In this document: positions 12,123 through 50,112 of the stretch, piece by piece | Numbering within the stretch: position 1 is the stretch's first letter | How the letters are laid out: every line of letters starts with the position of its first letter | Assembly (NCBI GenBank): GCA_963797095.1 | Contig: CAWCNY010000006.1 | Location: 288,001 to 352,000, forward strand | Reading direction: 5' to 3' | Length of the DNA: 64,000 nt | From: an uncultured Chloroflexia bacterium | Lineage (GTDB): Bacteria; Chloroflexota; Chloroflexia; QHBQ01; JADMIH01 | Translations under genes and position numbers: made by a program | The notes under the pieces: model-generated | Seen by the model: only the letters and a program-made list of their open reading frames with translations | The model's database searches: none | What the model was told of the DNA's origin: nothing

Positions 12123-12298
12123 CTCGCTTGTCTATCGGGTCTTATCATGTGATCTATCCCTCCTAATATATCGGGCATCCATCGGATAGGCATCGTGCGC
12201 AAGGTGGAACCAGGCAACAACGAGTGGAGTAACATTATCTACTACTTCTGTACGACCCTATTTAGGCCCTGGAATCGCAAGTAAGGTGGACCCCGTTG

Positions 12299-14714
12299 TC
12301 AAGACCACTGGGAGGCATTTTCTAAGGTGAGATTGCCTCCTTCTTGTGGGGTAGCTAGCCGACGGTAGACTGCCGCCGGTGTCTGATAGTCGAGGGCCTG
12401 GTGGGGCCGCTCATGGTTGTAGAATTCGATGTATTGGCCCAGGCTATGCCTTGCCTCTCTAGGAGTGCAGTATTCGTGCAGGTACACCTGTAGGCTAAGG
12501 GCCGTGCGCCTTGAGGTATTGCTATCTCAGGTTTCACTGCCCTCGCCTCCAAACCGGACGTACTCATTTCTGAGTATCTCGGCTTTCCCGTCCTTCGTTC
12601 CTTGGCTGGCAAGCCAAGTATTGCAAGTAGGATTTTCGGTTGTTGTGGCACTATGTGCCCCTCCTTTCCCCCTTGCAAGTGAAGGACCTGCGAGACTTCG
12701 CCTTGTACACGCCGTTAACGTGCGCCGAGAGTGGGCATTACTCCACTGACTACTACTCTCGCTCCGTAGCCTGGTGTAATATTCAGGTCCTGCAACCATA
12801 GCCTTGTGTCAGACTTGTATCTAACGCAGTGGCATTTACACTCGAGCTATCCCCGTTTAGTCTTAAACCAGATGCTTTCGATTTAGGTGGCTCGTTCAAA
12901 CCTTTATTCTCTTACTGAGACTGTGTTGGCCTAGAGGGTACATCCCATCATGAGGAGAAATGGGATGTTGGGCCAAAAGTGAGTGTCACCAGCCTTGCTG
13001 TCACCTGTCACCAGCCTGCTCACCCGGTTCAAGTTGCCCCACTCGGTTCTGAGCTTCAAGCAGTTTAGCCTTCACCATGTCGAAATTACTCTGAGAAACC
13101 CTCCGGTTGACTGGAACCATTGTTTTCCCTTACTGATGCCGTGCTATGTTCCCTCACGAGTTTTCACTCTTGAGGTAAGGCACTGAGTAGCTTCCTTTCC
13201 CTCAGGAAGCGAGATTGTTCGGAGCAATCTCACTGGCACTAAGACCCTTTACGGGCGCACCCTCATAGTTGATGGTTCTCCAAAGCCGCTCGGTGAAGAT
13301 GTTGTCCACGAACCGGCCCCTCCCATCCATGCTGATCCGCACGCCCGCCTCCTCCAACAGGCTGGTGTACTGCGGAGAGGTGAAGTGGCTTCCCTGGTCG
13401 GAGTTCCAGATATGGGGAGTCGCCCTGGAAAGAGCGGCACGAGTAGCTTCCATCACGAAGCTTTGCCCCATGTTCTGGCTCAGCTCCCAGCTAACGATGT
13501 AGTAGGCTAGGCCGCCAGCGAGTTGCCGTTGCCGACACTTTTCTGTCGGCCCGCCCCCGAACCCCGCATGCGCGTTGTCCACGCACGAGGCTCTCCAGTG
13601 TCATGATACGTGAACGTGAGTACCCTTTGTCCTGCCTGATGGCAGTCCTCTGCTACCACGTTCGCGTATGAGGTTGAGTACAGTTTCGGCGCTCTGCATT
13701 ACGCATACCTCTGTGTCTGTCTCCTCCCTGACACCTGTCACCCTTCCCCATGTAGACGGCTTTCCCGTCCGCAGAGTAGTATGGTGACTCCGTTACCATG
13801 GGGGTCTCCCCCTTTAGGCAATCCCATATTCCCTGGGTGTTAGACGTTCTAGCGTGACTTAGGTGCTTCGTTCGCTTCCTTTAGTAACCTCGTTGGCTAC
13901 CGCCCTCCAGTGGAAAGTTTCAGACGGCTCTCGATACTCCGCCCTGTACTGGAGGCTCTGCCATAAACAGTGTGTCAGAGGACGTGGCATTGCATCGCTG
14001 GAAACTGAAGTTCGGGCAATATTGCCTGAATGGGCAATAACAGTTTAGCTCTCACCATATCACGCGGGTCTTGCAGGGCCGTACGGTAACTGTTTTCCCG
14101 TACTCCCCACTTTATCGGCATGCTACTTTCCCCTTCAACTTTCGTATCCAGGTAGGCCGATTGACCCATAGGTCTCCTTTCCAACCTATCCCGCTTGCGG
14201 CGGGGATCTAACGTCCGGTTATATGGCGCACGCGGGAGTGCCAGTCCAACACCGCCACGAGGTAGAGCCAGCCTGGGTAGTCGCCCTTCATCCTGACGTA
14301 GGTCAAATCCACTCCCCAGACGTGGTTCGGGTACTGGGCCACCACTCCCCGGAGCAGATAGGGATATTTCGAATCGGACGCTCGTTTGCTACCTCTGCTC
14401 AGATGCGGACCCGGCACTATGGCCGAAAGACCCATCTCTCGCATATGCCTGATTACGGCTTTGCGGTTGACCGCATGACCCTCTTGCTGCAACTGCACGG
14501 TGATGCGCCGAGAGCCGTAGAAGGGGCGAGCTGTGTAGATTTCGTCTATGCGCCTCTTGAGGAGCACCTCCTCAGAAGAGGGAGGCACACTGTGGTAGTA
14601 CAAGCTGCTGCGGTTCAGCCCAAGCAGCTGGGTCTGAGCACGCATCGACAACCCCTGCACAGTGGTAACCGAAGGCTCCCGCTCCAGCAACGCTACTCGC
14701 TCCGCCCTACTCAT
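12299..14714 (-). CDS. IS3 transposase OrfB, three exons (14714-14232, 13501-13261, 12489-12299), 304 aa after splicing
   Basis: Junctions give DWHSR|YIVSWELS and TINYE(G|AG)VYLHEY; DDE motifs W.VDLTY, NSDQGSHF, DNIFTERLWRT, YNHERPHQAL. Confidence 0.9.
12490..13260 (-). mobile_element. group II intron (IIA-like), 771 nt, RT gene deleted
   Basis: 5' GTGCG; domain V GAAAGCCGAGATACTCAGAAATGAGTACGTCCGGTTTGGAGG; 3' end CCTAC; EBS1 loop (12950-12957) complementary to ligated exons ATGAGG|AG. Confidence 0.92.
13502..14231 (-). mobile_element. group II intron (IIA/ML-like), 730 nt, RT gene deleted
   Basis: 5' GTGCG; domain V GAGAGCCTCGTGCGTGGACAACGCGCATGCGGGGTTCGGGGG; 3' end CCTAC; 32-aa remnant ORF MQSAETVLNLIRERGSRGLP... 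Confidence 0.92.
13601..13699 (-). pseudogene. remnant of intron-encoded reverse transcriptase (ends fused by internal deletion)
   Basis: MQSAETVLNLIRERGSRGLP resembles the recalled N-terminus of ML-class intron RTs; no YADD motif present. Confidence 0.7.
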
Positions 14715-15021
14715 CGAGCCGGCCAGCTTTTTTTCCCAGCCACTCCAACTGGGTGGTCAGCTTGCCTATCTGGGCATACAGTTCATGCACTTTCTGGGCG
14801 TGTGCCTGTTCCCTCTGTGCCTGCTCTTTGGCCGACTGGCCGGAGAAGAGGGTGGGCAGCCCCTGCAAAGCGATGTCTCGCCACTGGTAGAGTTGGTGGG
14901 GGTGGATGCCATGTTCGGCGGCTATCTGCGCGACACTCTTCTCCTCGCGCAGTATCTCCCGCACGATGTTAGCCTTGTACTCCGGTGAATACTGGTTGCG
15001 TAGTCCGTTCATCTTTCTCAT
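14707..15021 (-). CDS. IS3 transposase OrfA (HTH)
   Basis: YSPEYKANIV.E.L....SVAQIAAEHGIHP.QLYQW; AAAAAAAG -1 frameshift motif at 14727-14734. Confidence 0.9.
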   Translation of the reverse strand: MRKMNGLRNQYSPEYKANIVREILREEKSVAQIAAEHGIHPHQLYQWRDIALQGLPTLFSGQSAKEQAQREQAHAQKVHELYAQIGKLTTQLEWLGKKAGRLDE

Positions 15022-15083
15022 GGTTGTTCCATCTCACCTTAAATCCTGCCGTTTCGTGGTCTAGTTTATGGGATCCATTATAA

Positions 15084-15140
15084 AGGGCACCCCTCATAGG
15101 TGCCCTCTGTAGGGTGCCCTCTGTAGGGTGCCCTCTGTAG
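15084..15140. repeat. GTAG-type REP-like palindrome plus three 14-bp tandem units (GGTGCCCTCTGTAG)
   Basis: agggcacccctcataggtgccct hairpin; tandem units 15099-15140; related motifs near 33420, 39465 and 50125. Confidence 0.65.
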
Positions 15141-49877: not shown

Positions 49878-50112
49878 CCACCCAAGCCAAGTCCCGGAGG
49901 GACGGCAGAGAGTAGCCCAGGGCGTAAGCCCTGTGGTAAGCCAAGGACAATGCCATAGCCCCATAGGGGCGTAAGAACAAGCACTCCAGCGTTGCATCAT
50001 GCAATGCTAATGCTCTTACGTCCCTCCGGGACTACTTACTTGGGCGGTATGAACCGCAGGGCTTACGCCCTGGGCTACTTTCTTGCGTCCCTCCGGGACT
50101 TGGCTTGGGTGG
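49878..50112. repeat. REPIN-like inverted repeat pair (GTCCCTCCGGGAC and AGCCCAGGGCGTAAGCCCTG)
   Basis: About 49878-49936 is the near reverse complement of about 50056-50112; related motif near 39340-39363. Confidence 0.7.

What the first reader, a model, noticed from the sequence alone, without database searches (positions are those of the whole stretch)
12282..15082. Intact IS3 element whose transposase is interrupted by two different RT-less group II introns
Seen: IRs, 3-bp target duplication, orfA and A7G slippery site are all intact. orfB is cut at HSR|YIV and YE(G|AG)VY by 730-nt and 771-nt inserts with GUGCG starts, domain V/VI and AC ends. Removing both gives an uninterrupted 304-aa DDE protein and a 1300-bp IS. 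Established: group II introns often target IS genes, but usually singly and with an RT ORF. Inference: transposase expression would need two splicing events plus a frameshift, with non-autonomous ribozymes riding on and possibly throttling the IS.
Basis: partly seen in the sequence, partly recalled or inferred. Interest (0 to 1): 0.85.

Follow-up and report, generated by a model that had tools for sequence, protein, structure and literature searches.

The report
Insertion sequence split by two introns
A small jumping gene in a Chloroflexota genome has itself been invaded twice by self-splicing group II introns that have lost their own enzyme genes: a tidy but essentially known case of parasites nesting inside parasites.

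Summary
Window 12282-15082 (minus strand) is a 2,801-bp composite. It is a 1,300-bp IS3-family element with imperfect inverted repeats and a 3-bp CTT target duplication. Its orfB is cut by a 730-nt and a 771-nt ORF-less group II intron. Removing both restores a 304-aa transposase that aligns without gaps to 60 uninterrupted homologues.

- orfB lies in the +1 frame behind an A7 run, as in IS1447, not the classic -1 frame.
- An invariant lysine (60 of 60 homologues) is Asn here.

Additions:
- Intron 2 sits at its lineage's natural homing site. An RT-encoding relative (89.6% identical) occupies the same codon in a much more divergent IS on a metagenome contig.
- Intron 2 has a second copy (770/771) elsewhere in the genome, so the ORF-less form moved recently with a reverse transcriptase supplied in trans.
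- Intron 1 is a deletion derivative of LtrA-like, twintron-forming introns. It sits at an imperfect site (EBS1 5 of 7 pairs).

Group II introns in IS3 transposase genes, ORF-less derivatives and trans-mobilisation are all published. Splicing here is untested. This is a new member of a known kind, of moderate interest.

The parts
12282..15082 (-). Whole composite element: a 1,300-bp IS3-family IS plus two introns (2,801 bp)
   Evidence: The ends were set by comparison with 6 left and 5 right ends of related IS copies. Exon-only similarity to an intronless relative at C6:794048-795340.
15083..15085 (-). Target-site duplication CTT, left flank
   Evidence: the flanks read ...CCCTT| and |CTTGCG on the minus strand.
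12279..12281 (-). Target-site duplication CTT, right flank
15056..15082 (-). Left terminal inverted repeat (TATAATGGATCCC...AGACCAC)
   Evidence: 9/13 and 18/27 identical to the right repeat. A further shared TAAGGTGAGA block lies inside.
12282..12308 (+). Right terminal inverted repeat (read on the + strand: TAAGGTGGACCCC...AGACCAC)
14707..15021 (-). orfA, 104 aa, HTH_Tnp_1
   Evidence: ORF. Pfam PF01527, E = 1.5e-12.
14728..14734 (-). A7 run followed by G. This is the slippage site joining orfA to orfB, which lies in the +1 frame
   Evidence: frame +1 reads ...WEKKLAGSMSRAERV, matching fused homologues such as P0085 (...WLKKKLALAMSRGERL). The -1 frame stops after 5 codons.
14232..14714 (-). 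orfB exon 1 (161 codons from the ATG): HTH_21 and the start of rve
13502..14231 (-). Intron 1, 730 nt, ORF-less group II intron of an LtrA-like lineage
13985..13989 (-). Intron 1 EBS2 (UGCCA), in the terminal loop homologous to EBS2 of relatives
   Evidence: 5/5 Watson-Crick pairs with exon positions -12..-8. The position comes from alignment A2.
13928..13935 (-). Intron 1 delta (A) plus EBS1 (UCGAGAG) in an 11-nt loop
   Evidence: 5/7 pairs with exon positions -7..-1, with mismatches at -1 and -4. Delta A pairs with U at +1.
13640..13699 (-). Remnant of the RT ORF in domain IV of intron 1 (first 20 codons)
   Evidence: 65% identity over 20 aa to residues 1-20 of the intact 620-aa IEP of 'inner intron B'.
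13502..13595 (-). Intron 1 domains V and VI
   Evidence: RF00029, 43.7 bits.
13261..13501 (-). orfB exon 2 (80 codons plus 1 nt)
13268..13270 (-). Codon AAC (Asn239) where 60/60 homologues have Lys
12490..13260 (-). Intron 2, 771 nt, ORF-less group II intron
12949..12956 (-). Intron 2 delta (U) plus EBS1 (CCUCAUG) in a hairpin loop
   Evidence: 7/7 pairs (6 Watson-Crick, 1 G-U) with exon positions -7..-1. Delta U pairs with A at +1. The stem and EBS1 covary in relatives.
12490..12587 (-). Intron 2 domains V and VI
   Evidence: RF00029, 43.7 bits.
12299..12489 (-). orfB exon 3 (2 nt plus 62 codons plus stop): rve_3 C-terminal part

Best explanation
The locus is a three-layer nest of mobile elements in a Chloroflexota (Chloroflexia-like) genome.

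Layer 1, the IS. A 1,300-bp IS3-family insertion sequence with IS1447-like gene layout (orfA, an A7 run, orfB in the +1 frame) transposed here and made a CTT duplication.

Layer 2, the introns. Its orfB was then hit by two separate retro-insertions of non-autonomous group II introns from two LtrA-like lineages.
- Intron 2 retrohomed into its lineage's natural target, the conserved ...K-Y-E|E-V-Y coding stretch of this IS clade.
- Intron 1 is an internal-deletion derivative of introns that normally home into the YADD-coding stretch of other introns' RT genes. It entered a partly matching ectopic site.

Layer 3, the maturase. Neither intron can make its own reverse transcriptase/maturase. Excision in vivo therefore depends on an intron-encoded protein (IEP) supplied in trans. 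The candidate is the intact 620-aa LtrA-like IEP of 'inner intron B', present in 2 copies.

Consequence. A full transposase needs +1 slippage on the A7 run and both splicing events. I infer that output is very low and the IS is effectively parked. It is single-copy and carries Lys239Asn.

What is shown and what is inferred:
- Shown: the anatomy, the ancestry of both introns, EBS-IBS pairing, structural conservation, and recent trans-mobilisation of intron 2.
- Inferred: that both ribozymes still splice, which IEP serves them, and the effect on transposition.
For: Anatomy:
-.
- The spliced OrfB aligns without gaps across both junctions to 60 of 60 uninterrupted homologues. The best is P0003, at 271/304 identical.

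Intron 2:
- EBS1-IBS1 is 7/7 and delta-delta' pairs.
- Metagenome contig L157 carries an RT-encoding relative at the same site (...KYE|GTGCGCCCGTAAAGGG). The ribozyme 5' part is 550/614 identical, while the host IS coding sequence is only 434/694 identical. That IS has no intron 1.
- A truncated intron-2-like 3' tail sits at the same site of a second IS remnant at C5:4663-4925.
- A second full copy at C4:713111-713881 is 770/771 identical and shares the ORF deletion. Its target is weaker (EBS1 5/7). This means retromobility happened after ORF loss.

Intron 1:
- It aligns through DI-DIII and DV-DVI with RT-bearing inner introns A and B.
- It keeps 20 codons of the ORF.
- EBS2 pairs 5/5 and delta pairs.

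Ribozyme conservation:
- In the intron-2 family, 107 of 197 consensus pairs covary across 4 sequences.
- In the intron-1 family, 57 of 143 covary across 5 sequences.
- Intron 2 keeps 188/197 pairs and intron 1 keeps 134/143, within or near the range of relatives.
- MFE z-scores are -4.9 and -4.4.

IEP lineage:
- The inner-A IEP and the L157 RT fragment both match LtrA best among solved structures (E = 1.9e-101 and 7.4e-64).
- Inner B encodes an uninterrupted 620-aa IEP.

Published precedents:
- ORF-less introns mobilised in trans (PMC2882425, passages read).
- ORF-less bacterial introns usually live beside related IEP-encoding introns (PMC4424553, passages read).
Against: - No RNA data: no RNA run was listed, so splicing is untested.
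- Intron 1 has EBS1-IBS1 mismatches at -1 and -4, which could cripple 5' splice-site use.
- No EBS2-IBS2 pairing was found for intron 2. At the loop where relatives L023 and L015 show 6-11 bp of EBS2 complementarity, intron 2 has none to the IS exon.
- No close cognate RT for intron 2 is in the assembly. The best match to the L157 RT fragment is inner B, at 47.7% over 241 aa. The assembly is 93% complete.
- The RT of inner intron A, the closest relative of intron 1, has a stop at codon 79 in both copies.
- No Rfam family other than RF00029 matched the intron bodies even at E <= 10.
- The covariation sets are small, and two intron-2 relatives (L016, L021) lack a canonical GUGCG start and may be decayed.
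- The consensus structures were predicted on alignments that include the two introns themselves.
Confidence: 0.6

Rival explanations
1. Dead relic. The IS was inactivated by the two insertions, neither intron is spliced any more, and the locus is decaying junk that has not yet accumulated many mutations.
For: - The full IS is single-copy in the genome. Other copies are a degenerate intronless relative with frameshifting tandem duplications and a 3' remnant.
- Lys239Asn sits at a position invariant in 60/60 homologues.
- Intron 1 has EBS1 mismatches, including at -1.
- There is no close cognate RT for intron 2.
- The inner-A RT is stopped at codon 79.
- A review states that most bacterial intron copies are truncated or inactivated (PMC4424553, passage read).
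Against: - The exons differ from >=95%-conserved columns at only 1 of 152. That is within the 0-9 range seen among the 60 homologues when each is left out.
- Both ribozymes keep about 94-95% of consensus pairs, like their relatives.
- The two copies of intron 2 differ by 1 nt, so an excised ORF-less RNA was active very recently.
Confidence: 0.28
2. Selected throttle. The introns are retained because inefficient splicing limits transposase and protects the host, as proposed for RmInt1 in ISRm2011-2.
For: - The published proposal for RmInt1 (PMC4238363, abstract read).
- The imperfect EBS1 pairing of intron 1 would give inefficient splicing.
- Intron-2-type introns recur at the same IS site: L157 and the C5 remnant.
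Against: - Recurrence at one site is what retrohoming alone predicts.
- The two-intron arrangement was not seen in the other 60 related genomes searched or in the one metagenome hit.
- No test of selection was possible.
- A parked IS carrying a Lys-to-Asn change needs no throttle.
Confidence: 0.08
3. Assembly artefact. Repeated intron copies were mis-joined into the IS during assembly.
For: Intron 2 is a repeat, with 2 copies in the genome.
Against: - Intron 1 is unique in the genome.
- Both insertions are exact to the base, restore one reading frame and have EBS-IBS pairing to these exons.
- An independent metagenome contig shows the same exon-intron junction.
- The contig is 1.06 Mb long.
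Confidence: 0.02

Closest known systems
E.c.I4 (IntA) group II intron in IS629/IS911/ISEc16/ISEc31 of E. coli/Shigella
   Same: A group II intron whose homing sites are specific positions in IS3-like transposase genes. Copies spread among divergent IS copies (PMC3522654, passages read).
   Different: E.c.I4 is an autonomous, RT-encoding intron with one copy per IS. Here there are two introns of different lineages in one orfB, and both lack the RT ORF. Whether the insertion position is the same was not compared.
RmInt1 in ISRm2011-2 (Sinorhizobium meliloti)
   Same: An intron inside an IS. The published idea is that poor splicing limits the host IS (PMC4238363, abstract read).
   Different: RmInt1 encodes its own IEP, which lacks the En domain, and splicing was measured. 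Nothing is measured here. The IS family and intron class differ (recalled, not tested).
TeI3 ORF-less introns and TeI4 twintrons of Thermosynechococcus elongatus
   Same: - ORF-less derivatives arose by a deletion in domain IV that leaves ORF remnants.
[quoted passage not shown]
- Twintrons occur in the same genome (PMC2882425, passages read).
   Different: - In T. elongatus, 17 ORF-less copies derive from one deletion and IEPs are 84-100% identical.
- Here there are two unrelated deletions and few copies (intron 1 once, intron 2 twice).
- The nearest IEP is only 47.7% identical to the RT of intron 2's relative.
- The IEPs here are LtrA-like rather than close to the T. elongatus type: 6me0 scores far lower than LtrA.
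IS1447 subgroup of the IS3 family (Clostridium thermocellum)
   Same: orfB is in the +1 frame behind a run of at least 7 A. In IS1447 the full transposase comes from +1 transcriptional slippage (PMC6211511, abstract and section 8 read).
   Different: IS1447 has A9 and is enriched in Firmicutes. Phylogenetic membership of this IS was not tested, and slippage is not shown here.
Nested group II introns of Methanosarcina (homing into related intron ORFs)
   Same: The relatives of intron 1 in this genome sit immediately after the YADD/FADD codons of other introns' RT genes. Homing into intron sequences is the pattern described for Methanosarcina (PMC4424553, twintron passage read; Dai and Zimmerly 2003 seen only as a reference).
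   Different: Intron 1 itself is in a transposase gene, not in an intron ORF.

Membership tests
Group II intron (ribozyme) | 5' GUGYG and 3' AY termini | tested here: met
   Both introns start GUGCGCC and end CCUAC.
Group II intron (ribozyme) | Domain V and domain VI matching the curated covariance model above its gathering score | tested here: met
   RF00029 scores 43.7 bits against a cut-off of 40 for each intron. The AGC of domain V and the unpaired A of domain VI are visible in the printed alignments.
Group II intron (ribozyme) | Multi-domain secondary structure (DI-DVI) supported by compensatory changes | tested here: met
   - Intron-2 family: 197 pairs, 107 with changes on both sides, 4 sequences.
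- Intron-1 family, DI-DIII: 143 pairs, 57 with changes on both sides, 5 sequences.
- The introns keep 188/197 and 134/143 pairs.
- Caveats: the sets are small, the structures are predicted, and the two introns are included in the alignments.
Group II intron (ribozyme) | EBS1/EBS2 (and delta) complementary to the flanking exons | tested here: inconclusive
   - Intron 2: EBS1 7/7 and delta paired, but EBS2 was not found.
- Intron 1: EBS2 5/5 and delta paired, but EBS1 only 5/7, with mismatches at -1 and -4.
Group II intron (ribozyme) | Self- or protein-assisted splicing | not testable with these tools
   No RNA run was listed.
Autonomous mobile group II intron (retroelement form) | RT/maturase ORF in domain IV | tested here: not met
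   There is no RT ORF in either intron. Intron 1 keeps 20 codons. Intron 2 diverges from its RT-bearing relative at the ORF start. Both are therefore filed as non-autonomous (ORF-less) derivatives.
LtrA-like (mitochondrial-like) intron lineage | The IEP of the lineage is closest to LtrA. 3'-exon recognition uses a delta nucleotide next to EBS1. | tested here: inconclusive
   - The IEPs of relatives (inner A, L157) hit LtrA best among solved structures.
- Delta-delta' pairs and covaries: U-A in intron 2 and G-C in L023.
- The class name is recalled. Ribozyme class features were not scored, and no Rfam domain I-IV model matched.
IS3 family insertion sequence | rve (DDE) transposase with an upstream HTH orfA | tested here: met
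   - Pfam finds HTH_Tnp_1, HTH_21, rve and rve_3 on the exon pieces.
- NCBIfam transpos_IS3 is the best model for exon 1 (E = 2.4e-30; below the whole-protein cut-off because only a piece was given).
IS3 family insertion sequence | Terminal inverted repeats and a 3-bp target duplication | tested here: met
   imperfect inverted repeats (9/13, 18/27) and CTT/CTT flanks.
IS3 family insertion sequence | Conserved catalytic signature, including the basic residue after the catalytic Glu (signature recalled) | tested here: not met
   151 of 152 columns that are >=95% conserved agree with the homologues. The exception is Asn239, where 60/60 have Lys. That this Lys is the signature K/R is recalled, not tested.
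IS1447-type subgroup | orfB in the +1 frame behind an A run of at least 7 | tested here: met
   The definition comes from PMC6211511 (section 8 read). Phylogenetic placement was not tested.

The most novel reading that the evidence does not exclude
One LtrA-like 'driver' IEP with relaxed specificity may serve two unrelated ORF-less introns. The candidate is the IEP of inner intron B, itself encoded inside a twintron and only about 48% identical to the RT of intron 2's closest RT-bearing relative. Transposase production by the IS would then be gated by the activity of a third, autonomous retroelement. That would be a natural three-tier dependency chain: IS, then non-autonomous introns, then autonomous twintron. 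It would also be a bacterial example of a shared trans-acting splicing factor for diverged introns outside cyanobacteria.
Probability: 0.2. Interest if true: 0.6.

Novelty: new member of a known kind. Interest (0 to 1): 0.4.

Why it matters
If both introns are spliced by a protein supplied in trans, this locus is a compact natural test bed for three questions:
- How far a group II maturase can stray from its cognate RNA.
- How non-autonomous introns persist in bacteria, where a review calls them rare (PMC4424553).
- Whether introns really restrain the insertion sequences they live in.

As it stands, it mainly documents ordinary retroelement behaviour in an intron-rich Chloroflexota genome: homing into conserved sites of other mobile elements, ORF loss and trans-mobilisation. 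That genome also holds several twintrons.

Tried and rejected
- RNA evidence. The look-up of sequencing runs (kind rna) on the whole element: no RNA holder listed.
- Rfam at E <= 10 on the element. Only RF00029 hit the introns. Three other weak matches (two frameshift-element families and a plastid domain-V model, 17-22 bits, far below their cut-offs) were treated as chance.
- Genome-contig scan with the 16-nt degenerate junction pattern. In one search, only 1 of 120 continued like an intron-2 5' end, and its exon is not IS-like.
- Phylum-wide BLAST of intron 2 with flanks. 4 of 401 genomes matched, including G000. The 3 others gave weak partial matches and none was at the IS site.
- Search for a conserved domain IV hairpin motif elsewhere in the genome. 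It occurs in both intron-2 copies and in three other places that I did not examine; no intron was linked to those. The search did show the single difference between the two intron-2 copies.
- EBS2 of intron 2: not identified. A 6-bp match next to EBS1 was rejected because it lies in the hairpin stem.
- A perfect 6-bp match of intron 1 positions 38-43 to exon -6..-1 was rejected as EBS1. It is one strand of a conserved, covarying hairpin near the 5' end.
- My first guess at the IS ends (TGG...CCA, 12287-15077, no duplication) was rejected after comparison with relatives.
- Literature. Searches found no report of an IS transposase gene carrying two group II introns. This is not proof that none exists, because subscription journals and supplements were not searched.
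- No structure prediction, complex prediction or protein-atlas search was run. None would change the verdict.
Full report
**1. What is there.**

On the minus strand of the window the sequence reads as follows:
- a terminal repeat starting TATAATGGATCCC at 15082;
- orfA (15021..14707, 104 aa, Pfam HTH_Tnp_1);
- a run of seven A followed by G (14734..14728);
- an open frame beginning MSRAERVALLE that stops making sense after ...VLDWHSR at 14232.

At 14231 the sequence GTGCGCCATATAACC begins. 730 nt later it ends ...GGCCTAGCCTAC at 13502. The frame resumes with YIVSWELSQ... for 80 codons. A second insert, GTGCGCCCGTAAAGGG...CCCTTAGCCTAC (13260..12490, 771 nt), splits a Glu codon (G|AG). The frame then runs to a stop at 12299.

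Rfam's group II domain V/VI model matches the 3' end of each insert at 43.7 bits against a gathering score of 40. Each match ends exactly on the last intron base.

**2. The exons make one gene.**

- Pfam's rve profile is matched at positions 4-35 by the last residues of exon 1 and at positions 36-100 by the first residues of exon 2.
- A search with exon 1 against longer proteins returned 3,283 hits at E <= 1e-10. Of the 120 listed, the closest are uninterrupted proteins of about 303-312 aa, up to 91% identical over exon 1.
- I aligned the computationally spliced 304-aa product with the top 60. It has no gap at either junction and is 271/304 identical to P0003.
- Of 152 columns that are at least 95% conserved among the 60, the spliced protein departs at one. 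Residue 239 is Asn where all 60 have Lys.
- The same leave-one-out count for the homologues ranges from 0 to 9, so the gene as a whole is not decayed. This particular Lys lies in ...FTERLWRTI-K-YEE. From memory, it is the conserved basic residue that follows the catalytic Glu of DDE transposases. That identification was not tested here.

**3. The IS ends, the duplication and the frameshift.**

- My first reading of the ends (TGG...CCA) gave no target duplication.
- I then aligned six left ends and five right ends of related copies, from this genome and from genomes of the same genus and order. Similarity starts at TATAATG and stops at CACC(T/A)TA.
It is flanked by CTT on both sides.
- The inverted repeats are imperfect: 9/13 and 18/27, plus a shared TAAGGTGAGA block.
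- orfB is in the +1 frame relative to orfA. Reading on in the -1 frame from the A run meets a stop after five codons. The +1 frame gives ...GKK-LAGSMSRAERV, which matches fused homologues such as P0085.
- This is the layout described for IS1447. In that element, +1 transcriptional slippage on an A run of at least seven A gives the full transposase (PMC6211511, abstract and section 8 read).

**4. Intron 1.**

*Copy number and relatives.*
- It is unique in the genome.
- Its closest relatives are the inner introns of two twintron families, which I call A and B. A lies at C3:115831-118378 and C1:~492-494.8 kb. B lies at C3:569575-572081 and C2:~823-826 kb.
- In those twintrons, an RT-encoding intron sits directly after the YADD (A) or FADD (B) codons of another intron's RT gene.
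- The same arrangement is present in a same-genus genome (L025).

*Descent by deletion.*
- Intron 1 aligns with A and B through domains I-III and V-VI.
- In domain IV it keeps the region around the ORF start and the first 20 codons, which are 65% identical to the inner-B IEP. It then jumps to just before domain V. It is therefore a deletion derivative.
- The inner-A IEP is LtrA-like (E = 1.9e-101 over residues 20-522) but carries a stop at codon 79 in both copies. Inner B encodes an uninterrupted 620-aa IEP.

*Exon recognition.*
- Covariation between A, B and their exons identifies EBS2 and EBS1 as two terminal loops, with a delta nucleotide 5' of EBS1.
- At those positions intron 1 pairs 5/5 (EBS2) and 1/1 (delta), but only 5/7 for EBS1. 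The mismatches are at -1 and -4.
- Both mismatched exon bases are synonymous third codon positions. A TCT CGA allele would pair perfectly. I found no such allele.

*Structure.*
- A five-sequence alignment gives 143 consensus pairs, 57 with changes on both sides.
- Intron 1 keeps 134 of them, against 137-139 in the RT-bearing relatives.

**5. Intron 2.**

*A second copy.*
- A second copy, 770/771 identical, lies at C4:713111-713881. It is 9 nt after the stop codon of a rarA-like gene, inside a GAGTGAA repeat.
- Both copies lack the ORF, so the ORF-less RNA was mobilised after the deletion.

*Exon recognition.*
- EBS1 (CCUCAUG, in a hairpin loop) pairs 7/7 with the IS exon but only 5/7 with the C4 site. 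Delta U pairs with A at +1 in both.

*The RT-bearing relative.*
- A degenerate junction pattern found one metagenome contig, L157.
- L157 carries an IS3 relative whose OrfB is 62% identical in protein to this one. It has no intron 1.
- After ...KYE at the same position, it has an intron whose first 614 nt are 89.6% identical to intron 2. That intron then continues into an RT ORF, of which 277 aa fall on the contig.
- The host IS coding DNA is only 62.5% identical (434/694). The intron is therefore much younger at these sites than the ISs are. That is the signature of homing.
- EBS1 of L157 differs from intron 2 at the position opposite exon base -2, in step with the exon: C-G here, U-A there.

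*Other evidence for the site.*
- A second IS remnant in this genome (C5:4663-4925) carries the last ~40 nt of an intron-2-like sequence at the same site.

*The missing cognate RT.*
- The L157 RT fragment is LtrA-like (E = 7.4e-64).
- Its best match in this genome is the inner-B IEP, at 47.7% over 241 aa. All others are 34-41%.

*Structure and distribution.*
- More distant ORF-less relatives (66-75% identical) exist in other genera of the class.
- With three of them, the consensus fold has 197 pairs, 107 with changes on both sides, and shows the six-domain layout. Intron 2 keeps 188 of the 197.
- Two of those relatives (L016, L021) lack a canonical 5' end and may be decayed.
- In a 401-genome sample of the phylum, the family was found in only 3 genomes besides this one, and only weakly.

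**6. Context.**

- The genome has 22 matches to RF00029, 19 of them above the cut-off. It holds three twintron families and several DV hits without an RT ORF within 4 kb upstream.
- Among 60 related genomes, IS relatives are contiguous across site 2 in G013:C110, G001:C876 and G001:C853, and across site 1 in L018 and L001. None shows the two-intron arrangement.
- Names attached to the closest homologues of a neighbouring FTR1 gene point to Chloroflexota, Chloroflexia-like (71% identity).

**7. Interpretation.**

The simplest history has four steps:
1. Transposition of the IS, which made the CTT duplication.
2. Retrohoming of an intron-2-type element into its usual IS site.
3. Ectopic insertion of an intron-1-type element.
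4. Loss of each intron's ORF by deletion. For intron 2 this came before its last move.

Neither intron can supply a maturase. Bacterial ORF-less introns are reported to be rare and to sit in genomes with related IEP-encoding introns (PMC4424553). Trans-mobilisation by 'driver' IEPs has been shown in T. elongatus (PMC2882425). That fits intron 1 well. It fits intron 2 only if an IEP about 48% identical to that of its relative can serve it, or if the cognate copy is missing from a 93%-complete assembly.

I think it more likely than not that intron 2 still splices, given its recent mobility and perfect EBS1. Intron 1 probably splices poorly. Together with the required +1 slippage and Lys239Asn, the IS is functionally parked. 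None of this is measured.

**8. Novelty.**

All of the following are in print:
- group II introns homing into conserved positions of IS3-like transposase genes (E.c.I4; PMC3522654);
- the idea that such introns restrain their IS (RmInt1; PMC4238363);
- ORF-less derivatives, trans-mobilisation and twintrons.

Four literature searches found no report of two group II introns in one IS transposase gene. That is a limited negative. I file this as a new member of a known kind with an unusual double, non-autonomous configuration. I score interest at 0.4.

Noticed in passing
L004 (G000:C3:114500-120500), L005 (C1:491000-497000), L006 (C3:568500-574500), L007 (C2:821000-827000); also C1:~28.3-31.6 kb: There are three twintron families. 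LtrA-like introns are inserted immediately after the YADD or FADD codons of another group II intron's RT gene, in two copies each. The same arrangement is in a same-genus genome (L025). The RT of inner intron A has a stop at codon 79 in both copies.
   Followed up: partly
G000:C4:713111-713881 (L002): A second copy of intron 2 (770/771 identical) lies 9 nt after the stop codon of a rarA-like gene, inside a GAGTGAA tandem repeat. The one difference is at window 12659 in domain IV. There the C4 copy has the base shared with relatives L157 and L021.
   Followed up: partly
window 12984-13017: Intron 2 carries a 22-nt tandem duplication in domain I that doubles a GGUGACA motif conserved in all relatives. 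The duplication is absent from L157 and the other relatives, but present in both genomic copies, so the mobile form tolerated it.
   Followed up: no
L001 (G000:C6:793500-796000): The intronless, degenerate IS relative has an 18-nt tandem duplication in orfA. It also has a frameshifting 14-nt tandem duplication (TGGACTGGCACTCG) ending 3 nt before the position where intron 1 sits in the window's copy. This may be coincidence or a footprint; it is unresolved.
   Followed up: no
window 49890-49935 (-) and 50055-50100 (+): Two full-length matches to Rfam Acido-Lenti-1 RNA (49.7 and 49.9 bits; cut-off 37) lie in inverted orientation about 120 nt apart.
   Followed up: no
window 15083-15140: Directly outside the left end of the IS there is a palindromic GGGCACC...GGTGCCC hairpin-like stretch and three exact tandem copies of GGTGCCCTCTGTAG. 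The IS inserted next to a repeat or hairpin region.
   Followed up: no
G000:C4:~362619-363368 and C4:~422439-423230: Two further RF00029 matches have no RT ORF within 4 kb upstream and a GTGYG at 750 and 792 nt upstream. They may be additional ORF-less introns. C3:424726 and C3:435563 share only their last 173 nt, so they look like 5'-truncated copies.
   Followed up: partly
L015 (G048:C4), L023 (G048:C1): Distant intron-2 relatives show long EBS2-like complementarity to their own 5' exons: 11 bp in L015 and 6 bp in L023. This sits in a loop where intron 2 and L157 have no match to the IS exon.
   Followed up: partly
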